DNA from: Chrysemys picta bellii
Lineage: Eukaryota
NCBI RefSeq assembly: GCF_011386835.1
Contig: NC_088795.1
Coordinates: forward strand, 118,606,001-118,670,000
Reading direction: 5' to 3'
Length of the DNA stretch: 64,000 bases
The notes beneath the pieces were generated by a model. That model did not search any database and was not told the origin of the DNA. It was given only the letters and a program-made list of their open reading frames with translations. Positions 4,060 to 54,110 of the stretch are shown in pieces. The position numbers and the translations under genes were made by a program. How positions within the stretch are numbered: the stretch's first letter is position 1; the number at the start of each line of letters is the position of its first letter.

Positions 4060-5420
4060 CTAGATACATATGTTCCTCATGTGTATAAGCGCTGAATCTT
4101 TGAGCGGCAGTGTCCATTGGAGCCATGCTTGTGCTCTGCGTGTCCTCGTGCCCTGCTCACCTGTAGATCTATAGAACAGAGCATCCCCGACCACCCTCTG
4201 TTCCCTCTTGCCATCTGGGGCAGCGAGACAGAACTCTGCCAGGTCTGCCCACTGCTTCATAGCAACCTCTCTTTGTAGCATTCTCCTGGACTTTGGCAGA
4301 TCCTTGTTTTTATTTCAATGAGTTTAATTTTAATAATGTGGTTCATTCTAGTGCCTCAGTACCTTCTGCCAAATGACTGAGCCCAAACCAGGTTTCAAGC
4401 CCTCCTCATCAGGCAGTGGTCTTAGCCCCTTAACCTTTGGACATACCCATTTCTGTTATTCGAGTGAGGGCCCCGTTCCAAGCCTTTGCTCAGCATATCA
4501 GTCCTCCTCCAAGAGAACCCACCTTTCCAGAGACACTCTGCTAACACTTTGTTCTGTTGGAACAATCAATGAGGGAGCATTAGATTTAGAAACATGTACC
4601 TCGCAGAGGCGCCATGTTCCCAGGAGATGCCCGACCCCCACTCCGCCCCAGTCCCTGCCCCCATTCCACCCCTTCCCACAAACCCCCTTCTCTTCCTGCC
4701 CCCGCACTGCCCCATTCTGTTCTTTCCCCCATCTCTTCCTGCCTGCACTCCTCCCACCCCTAGCCTCCTGCACGCCACTGAACAGCTGATCACAGCGGGT
4801 GGGAAGCGCTGGGAGGGAGGGGAAGGAGCTGATCAGCGGGACCCACTGGTGGGCAGAAGGGCTTGGGGGGGAGCAGGAGGAGCTGATCTGTGGGGCTGCC
4901 AGTGGATGCTAAGCAACCACTGTTTTTTTCCCGTGGAGCACCCATGGAGTTGGCGCCTACGGTACCTTGGACTCCAAAAAGGGATTATCCGCACAAAAAC
5001 TTCCATTCCTTCAGTGCCCCAGTAAGTACAGACTCTCCCCCAAAAGCTCCCTTGGCCAGTATTGAGAAGGGAACCTCTGTTCCTTTGACAAGCCATCAGT
5101 CCCACAAACTGAAGTCTGTACTAACTGGGGCTTTGGCATTGAAGCTTGGTACCACCTCTACCTTCTTAAGGCAGGGCACAAGTGAGCACTGTAGCAAGGG
5201 TGATTCACAGCACCCATCCTCTTCACCAGATCAGGAGAAACCTAACGAGGAAAAAAGATTAATGGGCCATTTGACTCTTCTAAATCTCATGGAAAGACCT
5301 GATCAGGCTAGTCTGACAGGCTCTTTGACTCCTCCAGCGCATCTGAAGCCAAGTCAACCCCAGTACCAAAGACCAGCACTAGTAAGGGCTCCCTCTCAGC
5401 TCTGGTACTGATATCAAGAC
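4060..5420 (+). mobile_element. DIRS-like retrotransposon remnant (5' end and ORF1), interrupted by a MITE
   Basis: ORF 4373 begins KPGFKPSSS...GHTHFCYSSEGPVPSLCSAYQSSSKRTHLSRDTLL, a decayed version of the Cys/His-rich N-terminus recalled for vertebrate DIRS ORF1; low-complexity S/P/K coding resumes after 4962. Confidence 0.55.
4602..4961. mobile_element. GC-rich hAT-like MITE inserted in the DIRS remnant
   Basis: Right end ggagcacccatggagttggcgcctacg; same family as 18581-18977; gtacct on both flanks but no clean 8-bp TSD. Confidence 0.65.
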
Positions 5421-43378: not shown

Positions 43379-45099
43379 ATTAAACTAAAGCTGTCTTTAT
43401 TTAAAAAATAAAAATCAGAGAGGCGTAATCTTTACCCACGTTTTATGACTGAGATAGGTAGAGTGAGGTAAATGCCAGTTTCTTTAAACATTATGCGGTT
43501 TGTTTTCAGTCATTTCTTTGTTTGTAAGTTGAGCTCATGAGTGAAGTGCAGCGGCTGAGCATTGCCATCTGGAAAGTCATCCACTTTAGAGTTCAGCTCT
43601 CTAGGTTATAGCTAAAATAAAGAATACTTAGCCGTTAATTTAAGTGGGATAATATTTACTTGTTTTATACTAATATATGAATCGTGATCTGAAAAGATAA
43701 AGAACTGGATGATGATAGTGATTGATAATTATGACATACTATAAAATATTAGAATTGTACCAAGTAGAGGTTGGTAGACAAAACTGTGACATGGTGGAGG
43801 AGAGTACTTATTTCATGGTGTGCTCATGTTAAAATATAGCCAATTGAATTAAACAATTGACTTCCTGCCAGATCTTAATTGGAAAGAGTACCAGTGAGAT
43901 TTAGAGGTTCTGAAATGCTGTTTGGTGTGATTTTTATTTAGCTAATTTGAAATTTTGTGTGTTGTCCTCAGACCTCCCCCTTCTTTGAAAATAATTGACA
44001 TGATACAGTGCCTCATTTAGATGGCATGCTTGCTGAACCCCTCCATTTTTGCCACCCATGTTAGACAGAGGCTGAAGTCAGTTTCTTTGAGTAGATACCA
44101 GCATGTCTCTCTAAATCACTTCCTATGATTATGAAACAGTTACTCACCCTATCTTCTCATTCTGCTTATGCCTTAAATATGAAGCTTACCCAGTGTAGTA
44201 AAGTGCCTGCTGACCTTGCAAGATTGTGTGGTGCAGGTGAGGTTTTGGAATAAGCTTTGGAACTTGCAGCTCCCATGTGGCTATGGTAGAGCTGGTTGGG
44301 AATCTTTTGACAAAACAGTTTTTTGGCAGAAGTAAAACTTTTTTAGCCGGGAGCATATCATGGAGTATTGGTATCTGCTACAGACCACCAAATTATGCCA
44401 AGGAATAGTATGACAGTCTCCTTATGCACCTATGTATAACGTGTAGGGGGGAAATGCTGTGCAGTCATGGGGGATTTCAATGAGTGACATTTGCTGGAGA
44501 TCTGTTGCTGCCAATACTAAAAAATCCTTGGAATTTCTAAATTCTATAGATGGCAGTTTCCTAACTCAAAAAATGTTGCAGCCAACCCAGGTGACTTCTT
44601 TCTGTTAGGACAAGGTCTAATAAAGAGGCATGATCACAGAACTAAAAATTAATGTTGGATTTGGATTCACTTACTCAGCGGACGGGTCTAACAAATTTAT
44701 TACGGCAAAACACTCAGCAAGTGGACAATGCAATGGACAGTACAGCTTCAACCTCTCTTTGTTACACGAACCTCTCTGTTACACAAACTTATAAATAAGT
44801 CTTTTGTTATTTTTTCTTATACATATGTATTAGTGTCTCATTTCCATGTTAACTTTTCTCCCCTGTCGGTACTGATTTAATGTTAGTTCAAACTGGTATT
44901 ACCTAGCTTTTTAGTTTATCTTTTCTTTTTCTCACAACCATGATTACTCTACAATTTCTTATATATGCACAGTTGTTCTTATGCGTATGCTCTTTAATGT
45001 TATCAAAAGAGACTCTTAAAATTCTCATCAGACTTCTATTAGGCCTAAATATGCCTTCCGTCCCGACACTTCCCACTATGAAGCCATAGAATCCTTCCT

Positions 45100-46400
45100 G
45101 GTGCTTAGCTGTACCACAGAGTCCAGGGCAGCACCAGCTTCAGATGACACATTGTGGATTTCATGCTGGGGAACTGGAAAAATTACCTTATCCACTATTC
45201 CGGTAACCTTTCTTGGAACTAAGCAGAACAGTGGCCAGTCATAACATGTTTGTGTCCCATATTAGAAGTATCCGACCCATGAGGTTAACCAATATTTGGC
45301 TTCTCCAGCCTTTGCTGGACCTTGTTCCCCATTGCCTCAGCCATATTATGCAATTTCAGGTTTCTTCATCCTAGGTGAACCCATGTGCTGGAATGCACTC
45401 TGCAGTACATCACGACATAACCAGATGTACCACCCCTCTTGGAACAACATGTGGAATCTGGGGCTTTCCCAACACCTCTAGCCCATCCTTAAGAGTATCT
45501 GAGGATGAGGGACATACTCCTTTAACCATGATAGGTTCCAGTATATCTATGATCTGAACACCATACACTCTTAATAGCTCACTTGGTGCTGCCAGTACCA
45601 TAGGAATCCATGTTTTGTCTAGCTTGCATCTTTTCTCAGCATAATAGACCCTTGAGTGGCGCCTAATCTGGCACCAATCTACTCCTTTTATTTTTGTCCA
45701 TTATTCCAACATCTTATTTGTTATGAACCCAGGCATTTCCCCACCTTGAATTTCCTTTAGTCCTACCTATAGTTCCTGTATTAAGAAACTGCCATGCCAC
45801 AAACAGGTCATTGCCTTTGATATATTAGGATGGTTGGTGGCGGTTGTTTTTTTTTCTTTTTTTCTTTTTTCTATTTCATTGCTAGCTGTTTCCACTTTCC
45901 TAATCAGATGTCCTGTTATACTAGTTTCCTGAACATCCTTTAAATCCTTCCCTATATACTCATTGTTTTGTTTAACTGTACTGTAACAGGTTTTGTAATT
46001 TGAACTTTCATTTTCTGATTTTCTTCCCACAATGCTGTGGTACTCATGTGATTCCCTGCTGACATTCCCAATGCCCCACCTCCTAGTACTGTACCTATAT
46101 CTCTTCTATCTCTCTTCCCCTGAGTAAGACCGAGCTGCTGTGGTAATGTTAAAATTGGTTAAATTCAATACTACAGGTATCATTTGGTACTGTACATTAT
46201 TATACATAATCTAATGTTCACGATTTATTACTAGTCCATTGTCAAGTTCTGTTTCTGGCCATGGGTAATCATCTTGCTTCAATTCTGGAGCAGGAGGTAT
46301 TTTTAGTCCAGTATGTTCAGGAGTGGTAGTGGTACTCGGTCAGTCTTTAATCTCATTCAGAGAGGTGGTCAAAGTCTCAGACTACGTTCTGACATGATAG
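45100..46400 (-). pseudogene. Decayed retroviral env-like ORF
   Basis: ..IMYNNVQYQMIPVVLNLTNFNIT.. / GKRDRR-DIGTVLGGGALGMSAGNHMSTTALWEENQKMK / ..CLWHGSFLIQEL*VGLKEIQGGEMPGFITNKMLE*WTKIKGVDWCQIRRHSRVYY; stops and frameshifts present. Confidence 0.7.
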
Positions 46401-48148
46401 GGAGGCTCATAGGTAGTTTGGTGATCTGGTAAAGTTACTGTAATACTTCCTGTATGTTAACTGCACTCTATGAATGCTTAGGTTAGCCATTACCATTCCA
46501 TTTAAAAATTCCATTCCAAGTCCCTGCTCCTGAGAGTTGCTTGTGCTGCAGGATCCTCCACCTACCTTGGCCACAGTCCAGTCTGTACCAGAACACTGTG
46601 GATTTTCCTGCATGTTTACTTGGGAACCATAAGGCTAAGGTGGCATTCTACCCCTTGTGCACTGTCACCACCTTGTTTCTCTGCTGTATCATAAATTCCA
46701 TGGATCCTGATGTAGTAGGTATTATGCCTCCCATGGTGATCAACACGTCAAAGAGAAAATAAATATTCTCGCTTCCCTCTTTTAAAATTAGTAGATTGAC
46801 TTCTGTCTTGTATGATTTCATCTGCATAGCATGCAACCACCCCTTTTTATCCTTCACCTGAATGAGATACACTGATGAACTATCCTTGTCCATTATGTAG
46901 CAAGGATCCTTCCAACTGGGTTTTGGAAAGGGTTTTGTATCTGAGACGTACTGCACAAGTATGTGATCTACAACTTCATACTCCTTTCCAGAGATGTGAC
47001 CATAAATCTTTTCAGTTTTCACTGGGCTTCCCCTAAATTAAGCAGCTCACATTTTATTTTTATATTTCAGCTTTGAAGACGTTTTTCACAGGTGAAAACC
47101 TTTTTTTTTTTTTTATTATTTTATTTTGGATGCCTGGGCTCTCTTAACTGCTGTATTCCATTTTGCTGCTGCTTTGATTTCTTTTCAGAGTCTTTACCAA
47201 CTTAGATATCAGTAAGTTGTGACACTTAAACTGTTCTTTTTCTAGCCCTGTTTGCTGCTGCTGTTCATTTTTTTTCTATTGAACTTACCCCTCTTTCCCC
47301 CTCCCCTCCCCAGTTCTCAGAGCCAACTCCTTTCTATAAAATTCTCAACCAGTCTTCTCTAGTCTTGAGATCACAAAATTCAACCTACTTTCTAGTGTTC
47401 ATAAGCTGCTTTATCAATTCCTCTATGCCCCTGGTTCTGGGACAAGGTCCTATTTCTTTAATTATGTCTAATATCTCCTCTGATGAAAATTTTTAACCTT
47501 CATCTCTGTACATGTACCACCCCAATTGTTTGGACTGTGGATGTGAATTGTAAGTGTCATAGGGACAGCTTTAGAGTCCAGATTACTTAAGGAAGGAAAA
47601 AAGTGGAATATAAGGAGGTGGTTGTGCCCTAGACAATACAGCACTGTCCACATTAATGATTTCTCCTTCCAAAAGTCTCACTGATTTAAGAGCGCCTGTC
47701 AGTTCTGTATTCTTCAATGGCACTGTTTCCAGCAGTGCTTGCAGAACCCCGTTCTGCTCCTTGAGAGACTCAGGTTCCAGAGCTTTCTCAATCAAAGCCT
47801 CAACTTGTACACTGTAGCACCCCGTAGCTCAGTGGCCTTGTCTCTCAGTTCTTGTCTCTCACCCTTCTGCATTTCTTTAACTTACGTTTTATTTCTTTCT
47901 GCATTCTAGTGTCAGTGCTTCATTTTGCTTCACAAAAGCTCTGGCTGTCATTACCCAACCCTCAACAAACAACCGTTTGGTTGCCAGAAAAGTTGCTTTC
48001 AAGCATGTCAGCCACCACTTCAAACAGATTCTGCCTTTTGAGAATGTCCACCTCCTTAAGTGGACCCTTACCATGTCTGGCCAGATATTCATTTACATAT
48101 CTCCCCAGTGATTCCATTGTCACTTAAACCCCATCAATACCTTAAGTC

Positions 48149-48526
48149 TAGGGTTACCATACGTCCGGATTTTCCCGGACATGTCCGGCTTTTGGGAGCC
48201 GGGCCGGCGGGGAGCCGGGGGAGCCGGGCCGGCGGGGAGCCGGGCCGGGCCGCCGGCAGTGCTGGGCGGGCCGGGGGTGGTCGGCCGGGGCCGGCACCCC
48301 AGGGCCCGAGCTGACCCAGGCTGGAAACGCCGGGGGGCCAGCCTGGGCCGCGCCTCCTCCCCCCACACCCTCCTTACCTGCTTCAGGCTTCCCGCGAATC
48401 AAATATTCGCGGGAAGCAGGGGAGGGGGCGGAGACTTTGGGGAGGGGGAGGGGTTGGGCGGGGCTGGGGCGGGGCCTTGGGCCGTGGAGTGTCCTCCATT
48501 TGGAGGCACAAAATATGGTAACCCTA
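48149..48526. mobile_element. hAT MITE inserted in the proviral leader/gag region
   Basis: Perfect 13-bp TIRs tagggttaccata / tatggtaacccta; perfect 8-bp TSD cttaagtc. Confidence 0.92.
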
Positions 48527-50808
48527 CTTAAGTCGTGGTCCCTTGGATACTGGCTGTTAGCCCAATTTGCAAACTGCCTGGTTCATTGTGATGTTGGATT
48601 GAGACTCCCTTATTCAGCAGATGGGTTTAACAAATCTTTATTAAGGCAAACCTTTCAGCAAGTGGTAATCAATTACTTACAAGTGGAAAGCTCATCAGTA
48701 CGATCTCCTCAGTCACCTCCAGTACTGGACAATACAGCTTCAATCTCCCTTTGTTACTCAAAATTTATAACTTTTTTTATCTTTTCTTATACATCTGTAT
48801 TAGTGTCTCATTTCCATGTTAACATTACTTCCCTGTCAGTACAGGTCTAGCATTATTTCAAACCCATCTTTTCTAGCTTTCTAATGACTTTATCTATTTT
48901 TAATTCACAGATGTGATTATTCTGCAATTTCTTACATGTGCAGTTTTACCTATGTTTACTCTGTTAAATATTATCAGAACAGTTTTAAAATTCACAGCAG
49001 GCTTCTATAAGCCAAAATATGTCTTTGCTCTCAACAGTAGTTTAGGTACAAGTGATCATGACTTGATCACATTTATAATAAGCAAGTAGAGTAAAGTCCA
49101 GAGCAGTAATACATATACTTGGTGCTTGAATAGGGCCAATTGTACAACGCTAAAAACAATTGAGAGCCAGATCATCTAGGAGGAATAACGTAATCAGAAA
49201 AATTTGAATGATAATTGGGAATCATTTAAGAACCTTACTAGATACCCAAAAAGCTACAATCCCTCAGTTGAGGAAGGAGGGCCATGTTGGTTAAAAAATT
49301 GGCCTGGTTTAGAGGCAAAGTGAAGGCAGCTATTGAAAAATATATAACAAAGGAGAAGTTAATAGTAATGAGTATATATCAGGAGTTAAGAATTGTAGGA
49401 AATTGGTAAGGGAAGCCAAGAGACATTAAGAGAAATCTGTGGCCAGCAGAGTTAAGGGACAATAAAGAGGAGTTTTTAAAATATGTTAGGAACAAAAAGA
49501 ATCCAGCAGTGATATTGGTCTATTACTAGATGAAAATGGTGGTAGAATTTTTGATGATAATACTGAAAAGACAGAAGTGTTCAATAAACATTTCTGTTCT
49601 GTATTTGAGGGGGGGGAAAGATTAGGTAGTCTAATCATATGGTGATAATACTTTCTATTCCACTAGTATCTCTGAAGGATGTTAAACAGCAGCTACTGAA
49701 GTTAGACATTTTAAAATCAGCAGGTCCACTGCATCAGGAGTTTTAAAAGAGTTGGTGGAGGAGCTTGCTCGTCCATTAATGTTGATTTTCAATAAGTTGT
49801 GGAGAACTGAGGAATTTCCAGAAGACTGGAAGAAAGCCAATGTTGTACCAATTTTTAAAAAGGGTAAATGGGCTGACCTGGGGAATTATAGGCCTGTCAG
49901 TCTAACACTGATCCCTGGCAAGCTAATGGAGCGGCTGATTTTAGGACTCAATTAATAAAGAATTAAAGGAAGAGTAACTAATGCAAATTATGCAAAATAG
50001 ATCCTGCCAAACTAACTTGATTTTTTTTTTTAAATAAGATTATGGGTTTGGTTGATATAGCTAATAGTGTTACCATGATATATACTTATCCTTCTCCAAA
50101 GATTTGACTTGGTATCACACGACATTTTGCTTAAAAAAACAAGAATGATATAAAAATAATATGGTAAACATTAAATGGATTAAAATTTGGCTAGCAGATC
50201 TCAAAATTTAATTGTAAATGGGGACTCGTCATCGAGTGGGTGTATTTCCAGTGAAGTCCTGCTGGAATCAGTTCTTGACCCTACACTATTTCAGTTTTAT
50301 CAATGACTTGGAAGAAATTATAAAATAATCACTGATAAAATTTGCAGATGACACAAAAACTGGGAGAGTGGTAAATAATAAAGAGAATAGTTCACTGATT
50401 CAGAGCGATCTGGATCATTTGGTAAACTGGGCGCAAGTGAACAATATGCGTTTTAATGCAGCTAAATGTAAATGTATCCATCTAGGAACAAAGAATGTAG
50501 GCCATACTTATAGGATGGGGGACTCTATCCTGGGAAGCAGGGACTCTGAAAGAGATTTGGAAGTCATGGCGAATAATCAGCTGACCATGAGCTTCCCAGA
50601 ATGATTCTGGCCAGAAAAGCTAATGCAGTCTTGGGATGCATAAATGGGAATCTTGAGTAGAAGTAGAGGTTATTTTGAAACTGGTGCGACCGCTGCTGGA
50701 ATACTGTGTCCAGTTCTGGTGCACACAATTCAAGAACGATGTTGATAAATTGAAGAGGAGTCAGAGAAGATCCACAAGGACTATTAAAGGATTCGAAAAT
50801 TTGTTTTA

Positions 50809-51047: not shown

Positions 51048-51438
51048 TCAAGAGGTGACTTGATTACAATCTATAAGTATCTACATGGGGAACAAATATT
51101 TGATAATGGGCTCTTCAATCTAGCAAAAAAGGGTATAACACAATCCAGTGGTTGCTAGTTGGAGCTCAACAGATTCGGACTGGAAATAAGATGTAAATTT
51201 TTAACAGTGAGGGTAATTAACCATTGGAACAGTTTATGAAGAGTTTTGGTGGATTCTTCATCACTGACGATTTTAAATTCAAGATGGAATGTTTTTTCTA
51301 AAAGATATGCTCTCAGAATTATTTTGGGGAAGCTCTGTGTCCTGTGAGCACAATGATCCCTTCTGGCCTTGGAATCTGTGAACGAATTTCTACAAAACTT
51401 TCAACAGGAAGGCTGTGTGGGTCAGATGGAGAGAGAGC

Positions 51439-51602
51439 CCCCAGAATAGCCAATAGCCTAGTGGTTAGGGCACTCACCTGGATTATGGGAGACAACCCAG
51501 GTTCAAGTCCCTGATACAAGTTAGGCAAAGCAAGGACTTGAACCTTGATGTCCCACATCCCAGGTGAGTACCCTAACCACTGGGCTATTGGCTGTTCTGG
51601 GG
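51439..51602. repeat. Inverted pair of tRNA-like SINE heads
   Basis: 43-bp arms (51439-51481 / 51560-51602) with 3 mismatches; inverted B boxes ggttcaagtcc (51500-51510) / ggacttgaacc (51534-51544). Confidence 0.75.
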
Positions 51603-51629
51603 GTGGGCAGGTCTTTCATTTGTCATGAC

Positions 51630-51979
51630 CAGGGCCGGCTCTGGCTTTTTTGCTGCCCCAGGCAAAAAAGCCTCCGGCCGCCCCCCAGCGCGGCAGGGGA
51701 GGGCGGCCAGAGCGCCGGGGGGAGGGCGGCGAGCCCCAGTCGGGGCTCCGCTCTCCCCGGCGGCGAGCCCCAGTCGGGGCTCCGCTCTCCCCGGCGGCCA
51801 GAGCGCCGGGGGGAGGGCGGCGAGCCCCGGTCGGGGCTCCGCTCTCCCCGGCGGCCAGAGCGCCGGGGGGAGGGCGGCGCGGGGCTCCGCTGTCCCCGGC
51901 GGCCGGAGCGCCGCGCCGCCCCCCTCCAGGTGCTGCCCCAAGCACAAGTTTGGTGGGCTGGTGCCTGGAGCCGGCCCTG
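51630..51979. mobile_element. GC-rich hAT MITE with internal tandem repeats
   Basis: TIRs cagggccggctc / gagccggccctg; perfect palindromic 8-bp TSD gtcatgac. Confidence 0.92.
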
Positions 51980-53204
51980 GTCATGACAAATGTTGAAAGG
52001 TCTGTTTCATCCCAATGAGTAACTAGAAATTTTTTTGGAAACTCTTTCCATCCAGTTCTAGGCTACAGTTCTGGGCTGGCTAGTAAAGGTGCTTTACTTC
52101 CTGTGAATTAGTGGTAATTTTTCCAACTCTTTTTTCCCCTCCCCACCCTAATCTCTCTCACTCGTATGAATATTGAGCGTCTAAATTTTGATGCTTGATA
52201 TTTGAAATCAAATTAGCGAGAATTTTTAAGATGCATCCTCACAGAGCTTTCGCAGTTCTGCCAAGCTTCAACTTTTCCAAGAAAGTAGAAGGCAGTAACT
52301 CATCATTCACAAGATAAATCAGGTCATGTGATTCCTAATAAACACAAAATGAGTTACAATCATGCAAAAATCTGATTACCTTGTTTTTGGCGGGATACGT
52401 GGACAGCATTGTTGTTTTTCTTTTTAGGAATGAAAGCTAAAAATCACTTTGATCTGGTAAACGTGGAAAAGAATGGGGAGGCAAACAGAAATGTGGGACA
52501 GGATACAAAACAATGAGTTGTTTAAAAAGAAAAAGACATTGATACTGGTGTTTCATTTACTCCAAGGATTAAAAAACTGATCTTTCAAATGCACTGAATG
52601 TGTTTTTGAAGAGTAGCTTCTCATTCCTCAGATTCAAAACACTCTGAAAGGCCCTGTTTCTGCCCAAAAAGAACAAATTCCCTAAGGACTCAGGAACTCT
52701 TCTGGATTTTTTTTGTTCTGTTTTTTTCTTATTGGTTTTGAACAGTGACAAGATGATTATTAATACAGACAAGCCATAGTATTGTTAAATACAAATGCAG
52801 ATACTTACCACATAGAATGAAAACTTTTCTAATTGACAATTTTATCCTATATAAGTAGTTGGGATAGTGTTAACAATATGTGTTACTATTTGTAAGGGAT
52901 GCCAAATAAAACTTAAGTTTTCTGAGACACATCTTGGTTAACATAATTTAATTTCATATTATCTTAAAGGATTTTTTAAATAGAAATGTTGCATCTTGAG
53001 TAACATTCCAGTGAAAATTATTAAGGTTTGAATAATTACAGCTATAAATGTAATAACTTGCTAGAACTGCATTGCTGTTCCTATAAAACATCATGCTCTA
53101 CATTTAGATGTGCTCCTTGAATTCTCCAGCCAAATGCACTGAGGACTGAAGAAAATCACTGAGTATTGCTAATAAATCAGTTTTGTTCTTGGGTTGCTTT
53201 GTAG

Positions 53205-53616: not shown

Positions 53617-54110
53617 TTATTTATATAGTCACAGCGCCTAAGAGCCGTAGTGCTGAATGAGGTTTGCATTTTGTTCCAATGGTGGTAAATTAAAATCAAA
53701 ACAGTATCCAATAGTCATTATATGGACACTTCCCTCTTATCTCATTGTATTAGACACTGGACAAAAAACGAAATGACACTCCCTGCCCCAAGATGCTTAC
53801 AATCTATAATTAACTTTCACATCTACCCCAAAGGCTGATACTGGACTGGAACCTGGGAAATCTGATATAAATTAAAAATAAAATATTTATCAGCCTTTGG
53901 GGTAGATTTGAAAGTTAATTATAGATTGTAAGCATCTTGGGGCAGGGAGTGTCATTTGTTTTTTGTTCAGTGTCTAATACAATGAGATAAGAGGGAAGTG
54001 TCCATATAGTGACTATTGGATACTGTTTTGATTTTAATTTACCACCATTGGAACAAAATGCAAACCTCATTCAGCACTACGGCTCTTGGGCGCTGTGACT
54101 ATATAAATAA
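53617..54110. repeat. Long inverted duplication, 224/223-bp arms, 47-nt spacer
   Basis: 53617-53840 is the reverse complement of 53888-54110, with about 4 substitutions and one 1-nt indel. Confidence 0.95.

What the first reader, a model, noticed from the sequence alone, without database searches (positions are those of the whole stretch)
44653..49036. Old antisense provirus with an env that does not look gamma-type
Seen on the minus strand, in order: LTR, gag remnant with PPPY late-domain motif, integrase C-terminal remnant, env remnant, polypurine tract, LTR. Protease, RT and RNase H are not visible. The env has N-glycosylation sequons (NLT, NIT), a furin site RDRR and a Gly-rich fusion peptide DIGTVLGGGALGMSAGN, followed by roughly 1 kb of further sequence. 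I saw no CX6CC or immunosuppressive motif there. Inference: a long post-cleavage subunit fits spuma-like/class III or lokiretrovirus-type envelopes better than gamma-type. QIRRHSRVYY loosely recalls foamy-virus TM, judged by eye only. This may be a poorly described reptile lineage.
Basis: partly seen in the sequence, partly recalled or inferred. Interest (0 to 1): 0.7.

Follow-up and report, generated by a model that had tools for sequence, protein, structure and literature searches.

The report
Reptile retrovirus fossil with RSV-like envelope
This is a dead, heavily deleted copy of an old multi-copy retrovirus family, likely related to snakehead-fish retrovirus, whose envelope gene has intact shark and frog relatives predicted to fold like the fusion proteins of RSV/measles-type and foamy viruses, which would widen the set of retroviruses known to use that entry protein.

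Summary
LTRs (K2P 0.23), gag with PPPY, integrase tail and env with RDRR plus fusion peptide are present, with no CX6CC or ISD. The provirus interrupts a CR1-like repeat. Sibling copies (17 of 20 fetched loci hold env pieces) supply what this copy lost: protease, RT, tether, second RNase H, integrase core, the env membrane anchor, an Arg-tRNA primer site and 5-bp target duplications. By-eye motif comparison puts pol with snakehead retrovirus and CrocERV37-40/Ovex1 (clade Huo), not with lokiretrovirus, foamy virus or ERV4; no labelled tree could be built. The env has intact homologs in sharks and frogs (best E 2e-18). A modest-confidence model of the shark protein best matches pneumo/paramyxovirus F and foamy Env. 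An N-terminal Ig-like domain is likely but scored below threshold. The scan noted this type before in shark DNA; this adds a reptile family. Ten literature searches found no paper describing it. The locus itself is a fossil.

The parts
48592..49036 (-). 5' LTR (445 nt, TG...CA)
48574..48588 (-). decayed primer-binding site for tRNA-Arg(ACG): 9 of 15 nt match here, 11-13 of 15 in four siblings (hand count)
   Evidence: LTR ends; host tRNA-Arg ACG genes
48149..48526 (.). later insertion: 378-nt GC-rich MITE with inverted ends and a perfect 8-bp target duplication (hAT type, label recalled)
   Evidence: absent in one contig of run X7
47290..48117 (-). gag remnant with stops and frameshifts, QPPPY at 47624-47610, 3' end deleted
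   Evidence: no Pfam hit, named from position and sibling context
47030..47289 (-). 3' part of an AT-rich non-pol segment that stands where RT, RNase H and integrase core were; shared with 7 of 31 fetched loci
   Evidence: no Pfam hit in six frames
46800..47037 (-). integrase C-terminal remnant
   Evidence: contiguous with integrase core in siblings L020 and L026
46380..46800 (-). env N-terminus: hydrophobic signal-like run, then a likely Ig V-like domain
   Evidence: Pfam V-set E 5.8e-4, 0.01 and 0.089, all under the curated cut-off; model inconclusive
46114..46379 (-). env Thr/Pro-rich linker and F2-like segment; about 110 nt missing against siblings
46051..46113 (-). furin-type site RDRR and Gly-rich fusion peptide
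   Evidence: aligns with RKRR/DLAEWIGIGA of shark P0002
45078..46050 (-). F1-like env ectodomain (heptad repeat A, helical and Cys-rich beta domains), broken by stops and frameshifts; heptad repeat B and membrane anchor deleted
   Evidence: tblastn of P0002 on the window E 1.8e-14 and 8e-5
45069..45077 (-). short polypurine tract
44653..45068 (-). 3' LTR (416 nt, TG...CA)
49037..49955 (+). host repeat interrupted by the provirus (CR1-like LINE, label recalled from ORF motifs); continues below 44652
   Evidence: ORF 49686-49955; many contigs join 44651-44654 to 49037-49050

Best explanation
The locus is a dead, internally deleted provirus of an old multi-copy retrovirus family, likely of the snakehead-retrovirus/Ovex1/CrocERV37-40 group (clade Huo), whose env is predicted to be an F-type class I fusogen with a likely Ig-like domain at its N-terminus. 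Shown: LTR-PBS-gag-(pol)-env-PPT-LTR anatomy, many degraded siblings, a retroviral pol with tether plus second RNase H in siblings, and homology of env to intact shark and frog proteins. Inferred mechanism: the parent virus primed on tRNA-Arg and integrated with a 5-bp duplication. Its Env would be cleaved by furin at RX(K/R)R, bind a receptor through the N-terminal domain and refold through two heptad repeats as paramyxovirus F and foamy Env do. This copy belongs to a non-autonomous subfamily in which most of pol had been replaced by an AT-rich segment, so it was probably copied with enzymes from complete relatives. After inserting into a LINE it lost more of gag/pol, part of F2 and the membrane anchor, and gained a MITE. 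It is unlikely to make a working protein.
For: Anatomy. Family: 60 matches in the own genome (40 of 64 candidates scored); all 20 loci fetched match the element, 17 with env pieces. Pol: Pfam RVT_1, RT_RNaseH (tether), RNase_H, Integrase_H2C2 and rve in L020, RVT_1 E 1.8e-13 in L056; 5 of 31 loci hold RT/RNase H/integrase core. Placement by eye: VAS.PE, LDISNGFW and GFH.S..IFH shared with SnRV; the stretch before RT, the tether and integrase resemble CrocERV38/39. PBS and TSD. Env: the profile search gave 8 hits at E<=0.001 among 1.84 billion proteins, best P0002 2e-18 and P0004 1.5e-13; named ones are from sharks and frogs; hhalign 99.9% over 276 columns. Fold of P0002: all Foldseek PDB rows listed are pneumo/paramyxovirus F, best E 1.1e-9; VIA-align NDV F Z 8.1 (rmsd 13.5, 251 aligned) and foamy Env 8rm0 Z 8.0 (rmsd 15.4, 238 aligned), first unrelated row Z 4.9; walleye epsilonretrovirus Env E 1.6e-8 and 1.2e-7, feline foamy Env 3.4e-4.
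Against: The fold was obtained for the shark homolog, not the window sequence; the model is weak (mean pLDDT 44.9, pTM 0.30), TM-scores are 0.13-0.26 and rmsd is high. Direct sequence links to F are nearly absent: PF00523 E 0.11 in 1 of 14 pieces, no F protein among PDB sequence hits. The Ig domain is not proven: V-set scores are under cut-off, its model had pLDDT 41 and matched beta-barrels, and it did not align significantly with the matching region of a second family (probability 0.2%). Pol placement rests on hand comparison; in one 21-residue block SnRV matched 11, SFV and CrocERV37/40 10, Loki 7, so it separates Loki better than foamy. PDB RT hits do not discriminate and the tree was unresolved. 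No intact TSD at this locus.
Confidence: 0.8

Rival explanations
1. It is a turtle lokiretrovirus, one of the degraded reptile Loki elements already reported.
For: Loki Env is F-like with RXKR site, fusion peptide and coiled coil; Loki has tether plus RNase H; degraded Loki elements were found in 9 of 11 turtle genomes (PMC7947760).
Against: The Loki RT rows seen have C/L-PFGY.N motifs and a WP(M) block; siblings here have LP.GFHNSPAIFH and VAS.PE, as SnRV does. Hand counts: Loki-Str 10 of 29 and 7 of 21 against SnRV 15 of 29 and 11 of 21. Loki-Str Env has no long N-terminal extension before the F2-like part.
Confidence: 0.06
2. It is a foamy-like (clade Tu) or ERV4 element with its native envelope.
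For: Foamy Env ties for best structural match; a 5-bp TSD, no evident zinc finger and a retained env fit ERV4 of turtles and crocodilians (PMC4299795); PQKQYP occurs at the RT start.
Against: The two ERV4 RT passages seen differ around the LPQG motif; foamy Env (981 aa) is longer than the 677-754 aa homologs; no foamy Env Pfam hit; pol resembles CrocERV37-40, which that paper keeps apart from ERV4.
Confidence: 0.08
3. The N-terminal domain is a captured host Ig-superfamily gene fragment in a separate frame (as nectin3 in CrocERV31), not part of Env.
For: Ig-gene capture by reptile ERVs is documented; V-set-like signal here.
Against: In L018 the end of the domain runs in frame into the F2-like part and past the furin site; intact homologs carry 170-200 residues ahead of the F core in one ORF, one named Ig-like by UniRef and one with V-set E 0.045; no host Ig protein was hit among PDB sequences.
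Confidence: 0.05

Closest known systems
CrocERV37-40 (Repbase ERV-1/2/3/5_AMi and relatives), Ovex1 and SpeV (Chong et al. 2014, PMC4299795; PMC2717909)
   Same: By eye, pre-RT stretch, RT, tether, RNase H and integrase motifs; 4-5 bp TSD; env present. Ovex1 ORF3 lacks ISD and CX6CC. The CrocERV39 env fragment shows a similar helix / Cys-rich pattern by eye.
   Different: Those papers give no fusogen class or Ig-like domain in the passages read; Ovex1 ORF3 is longer (873-874 aa) and its env identity was left uncertain. No computed alignment to these sequences was made here.
Snakehead retrovirus (SnRV) and clade Huo (Xu et al. 2018, PMC6001957), including CmiERV lineage I (PMC4422223)
   Same: Closest RT motifs among the named viruses viewed; an Arg primer is recalled for SnRV, not checked (paper not held).
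   Different: SnRV Gag has a zinc finger and SnRV has accessory ORFs; neither was seen here. SnRV Env was not among the 50 BFVD rows listed and was not compared directly.
Lokiretroviruses (Wang and Han 2021, PMC7947760)
   Same: F-type Env with furin site, fusion peptide, coiled coils and TM; dual RNase H.
   Different: RT motifs differ; no smc gene seen; Loki-Str Env lacks the long N-terminal domain.
Foamy virus Env (PDB 8rm0, 8rm1) and paramyxo/pneumovirus F
   Same: Predicted core fold of the shark homolog.
   Different: 10-14% identity in structural alignments; shorter than foamy Env; carried by a non-foamy pol.

Membership tests
Retroviridae (ERV) | LTR-PBS-gag-pol-env-PPT-LTR order | tested here: met
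   pol core only in siblings
Retroviridae (ERV) | tether plus second RNase H | tested here: met
   L020: RT_RNaseH E 2.3e-4, then RNase_H E 3.9e-6
Gamma-type Env | ISD and CX6CC in a short TM ectodomain | tested here: not met
   pattern scan of window frames and 5 intact homologs; post-cleavage part about 460 aa in P0002
F-type class I fusogen | furin site, fusion peptide, HRA, helical and Cys-rich beta domains, HRB, TM; F fold | tested here: met
   via homolog P0002; model confidence modest
Lokiretrovirus | RT inside the Loki clade | tested here: inconclusive
   motifs by eye argue against; no tree with named references
Lokiretrovirus | Env similar to PF00523 | tested here: inconclusive
   E 0.11 in 1 of 14 pieces, none in 8 homologs; fold agrees
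Clade Huo (SnRV / Ovex1 / CrocERV37-40) | RT phylogenetic position | tested here: inconclusive
   by-eye motif match favours it; unlabelled 14-row tree unresolved
ERV4 (Chong 2014) | 5-bp TSD | tested here: met
   1 of 5 solo LTRs perfect, 2 of 5 at 4/5, 2 none; L022 4/5, L020 none; not exclusive to ERV4
ERV4 (Chong 2014) | pol phylogenetic position | tested here: inconclusive
   two ERV4 passages look unlike; the paper's tree file was unreadable
Spumaretrovirinae | foamy RT clade, long Env with leader peptide, accessory genes | tested here: inconclusive
   fold tie with 8rm0 but no Pfam foamy Env hit, shorter Env, and no accessory region between env and LTR
Ig V-set domain (env N-terminus) | Pfam V-set above cut-off or Ig fold | tested here: inconclusive
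   E 5.8e-4 to 0.089, all under cut-off; models low confidence
Catalogued Repbase/Dfam family | end-to-end match | not testable with these tools
   no Repbase or Dfam library available

The most novel reading that the evidence does not exclude
Clade Huo retroviruses from sharks to reptiles carry an undescribed envelope class, an F-type fusogen tipped with a captured Ig V-like receptor-binding domain. With lokiretrovirus, foamy and walleye epsilonretrovirus Env this would make the F-type fold the ancestral retroviral envelope and gamma/beta types later replacements. It would also identify Ovex1 ORF3 as such a fusogen, and the 86%-identical intact shark genes as a co-opted host gene.
Probability: 0.4. 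Interest if true: 0.72.

Novelty: new variant of a known kind. Interest (0 to 1): 0.47.

Why it matters
Envelope surveys of non-mammalian ERVs searched for gamma- and beta-type Env only (bioRxiv 2021.11.23.469661, parts read), and F-like Env is presented as a lokiretrovirus peculiarity. An F-type Env on an SnRV/Ovex1-grade pol, present in several families of one reptile genome and intact in sharks and frogs, bears on the open question of where retroviral env came from (the four scenarios of Wang and Han). It also gives natural intact proteins on which that can be tested. The locus itself is only a fossil witness.

Tried and rejected
Two word-indexed protein searches with turtle env pieces found nothing; a third, with the homolog alignment, added one protein. 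PDB sequence searches with env profiles or proteins gave no fusion protein. One search used a wrong frame and is only a copy finder. Atlas: one lead at score 0.82, an 874-aa chordate cluster, the length of zebra finch Ovex1 ORF3; below the 0.9 level, lead only. The Ig-domain model (pLDDT 41) and its fold search were uninformative. The RT tree on 103 columns, 14 unique rows, no named references, had an open backbone. Pfam found no V-set in the second family's N-terminus. The AT-rich segment had no Pfam match. No RNA holder listed; guessed-RNA contigs cover only small pieces. Recombination between two distant proviruses, suspected from the missing TSD, was rejected because both flanks join in uninterrupted copies of one repeat. 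A co-opted gene at this locus was rejected: every frame is broken and the anchor is deleted. The SnRV genome paper was not held. The ten paper searches were made; none showed a description of F-type or Ig-tipped Env in SnRV-related ERVs. Subscription papers, bioRxiv supplements and the tree figure of PMC4299795 could not be seen and may bear on novelty.
Full report
Observation. The element is real and lies as described on the minus strand: 5' LTR 49036-48592, 3' LTR 45068-44653, both TG...CA, K2P distance 0.233 over 388 columns. QPPPY, the integrase tail, NLT, RDRR, the Gly-rich peptide and QIRRHSRVYY are at the places listed under parts. No CX6CC or ISD pattern occurs in the three env-strand frames. 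The NIT sequon lies past a frameshift and is not in the siblings aligned there. A 378-nt MITE with an 8-bp duplication sits in the leader and is absent from a contig of run X7. In that call many contigs of other repeat copies join the two flanks directly, so this is one insertion into a multi-copy repeat, CR1-like by its ORF motifs (label recalled). No intact target duplication remains here; the letters between the joined flanks suggest a 5-bp one with one copy lost (inference).

Family. The host genome is 2.37 Gb with large and small chromosomes; a turtle is my inference and was not tested. A 2.5-kb query gave 60 matches (40 of 64 candidates scored). All 20 loci fetched next match the element, mostly at 70-80% identity, 17 with env pieces. 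Of 31 loci, 5 hold RT, RNase H or integrase core: L020 has RT end, tether, second RNase H and integrase; L056 has RVT_1 at E 1.8e-13. Seven of the 31 loci and the window share an AT-rich segment of about 650 nt in place of most of pol with no Pfam match. This points to a non-autonomous, env-bearing subfamily copied in trans (inference). Four siblings match host tRNA-Arg(ACG) at 11-13 of 15 nt after the 5' LTR, the window at 9 of 15 (hand count). Of 5 solo LTRs one has a perfect 5-bp duplication, two match 4 of 5, two none. LTR distances between copies are 0.17-0.25 and 0.15 within L020. At the crocodilian rate used by Chong et al. (3.9e-10) 0.233 gives about 300 My; a rate two to three times faster gives 100-150 My. 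The age is of order 1e8 years and wholly rate-dependent.

Pol placement. I could compare with named references only by eye, from supplements. In a 29-residue RT block of L057, identities were SnRV 15, CrocERV38 15, CrocERV40 15, CrocERV39 14, Loki-Str 10. In a 21-residue block of L056 they were SnRV 11, CrocERV37 10, CrocERV40 10, SFV 10, HERV-L 9, WDSV 9, one ERV4 passage 8, Loki-Str 7. The stretch before RT, the tether and the integrase also resemble CrocERV38/39. Chong et al. leave CrocERV37-40 unclassified and group 37-39 with Ovex1 and SpeV; Xu et al. call the SnRV-related clade Huo. PDB RT hits did not discriminate and my tree was unresolved. So clade Huo is likely, and Loki is the best excluded rival.

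Env. Ten of ten siblings shown carry about 300 nt more before the LTR, with a heptad repeat, a Trp-rich stretch and a hydrophobic anchor; the window also lacks about 110 nt before the furin site. A profile of 14 in-frame pieces hit 8 of 1.84 billion proteins at E<=0.001: 739 aa from bamboo shark (2e-18; UniRef name Ig-like domain-containing), 723 aa from Pelodytes, 677 aa from Mantella (16-member cluster), a 749-aa unnamed protein, a sawshark fragment, a second Mantella protein and two short unnamed pieces. A catshark protein is 86% identical to the bamboo shark one. Profile-profile probability is 99.9% over 276 columns, and P0002 hits the window itself at E 1.8e-14. The P0002 model is weak overall (pLDDT 44.9, about 45-78 per block over residues 360-600). 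Every listed Foldseek PDB row is a pneumo- or paramyxovirus F (best E 1.1e-9, TM 0.13-0.26). VIA-align ranks NDV F (Z 8.1, rmsd 13.5, 251 aligned) and foamy Env (Z 8.0, rmsd 15.4, 238 aligned) first; the top 12 rows are all F or foamy Env and the next is a coiled coil at 4.9. BFVD adds insect mononegaviral and baculoviral F, walleye epsilonretrovirus Env (1.6e-8, 1.2e-7) and feline foamy Env (3.4e-4), and lists no gamma-type Env in 50 rows. Against: sequence-level links to F are nearly nil.

N-terminal domain. Weak V-set scores appear in the window (5.8e-4, partly read in a frame that siblings do not support; 0.01 for the clean piece), in L023 (0.089) and in P0007 (0.045). A second family shows a V-set-like strand motif by eye but no Pfam hit. 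Folding failed and the two families' domains did not align significantly. I rate Ig-like at about 65%. An IgV-like receptor-binding domain is known in gamma-type Env (bioRxiv 2024.03.17.585361), which would be a parallel.

Breadth. P0002 matches 65 places in this genome (61 of 229 candidates scored). Of 12 such loci fetched, none matched the window element at nucleotide level and 5 also hold pol pieces, so F-type Env is carried by more than one family here.

How it worked. Inferred from F and foamy Env: furin cleavage frees the fusion peptide, the N-terminal domain binds a receptor, and the two heptad repeats zip to fuse membranes. The copy here cannot do so: env is frameshifted and lacks its anchor, and pol is gone.

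Prior knowledge. Papers seen: PMC7947760 (parts 1-3 of 4 and supplement passages); PMC4299795 (abstract, passages, supplement 1, part 41 and passages of supplement 5; tree file unreadable); bioRxiv 2021.11.23.469661 (parts 1-2 of 6); passages only of bioRxiv 2024.03.17.585361, bioRxiv 2023.10.26.564294, PMC11521997, PMC2717909, PMC4422223, PMC13709493, PMC6001957 and PMC12456133. Ovex1 ORF3 was reported to lack ISD and CX6CC, with uncertain identity. None of ten searches showed this env class described for SnRV-related ERVs. Two earlier notes of this scan report the same combination in shark DNA. I had reached the reading before seeing them, and they are unchecked AI notes, not support.

Verdict. 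A real, ordinary-looking fossil that witnesses an under-described envelope class: new variant of a known kind, interest 0.47.

Noticed in passing
window 48149-48526: 378-nt GC-rich MITE with inverted ends and perfect 8-bp duplication; very high copy by contig depth and absent from one contig of run X7, so recent.
   Followed up: partly
L016 about 4700-5310; window 47030-47289: AT-rich segment of unknown origin replacing most of pol in 7 of 31 loci and the window; no Pfam match.
   Followed up: partly
L099-L101, L104, L106, L107, L109, L110: A second, less decayed ERV family in the same genome with an F-type env resembling P0007 by eye and a V-set-like motif at the N-terminus.
   Followed up: partly
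proteins P0002 and P0025: Intact env-like proteins of two shark orders, 86% identical, each on record from one contig; possible co-opted gene.
   Followed up: no
proteins P0005, P0010-P0023: Mantella aurantiaca has a 16-member cluster of mostly full-length 677-aa env-like proteins, suggesting a young expansion.
   Followed up: no
L082-L092: At least 11 identical RT matches with open frames up to 1219 aa: a young multi-copy ERV family, not examined.
   Followed up: no
BFVD rows Q9WHI8 and A4GTG3: Walleye epsilonretrovirus Env models match the F-type model at E 1.6e-8 and 1.2e-7.
   Followed up: no
L035 596-2410 (-): 605-aa open frame resembling a hAT/SPIN-type transposase (label recalled).
   Followed up: no
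window 51438-51603, 51617-51992, 53727-54000: Several inverted-repeat elements, probably MITEs, beyond the 5' flank.
   Followed up: no
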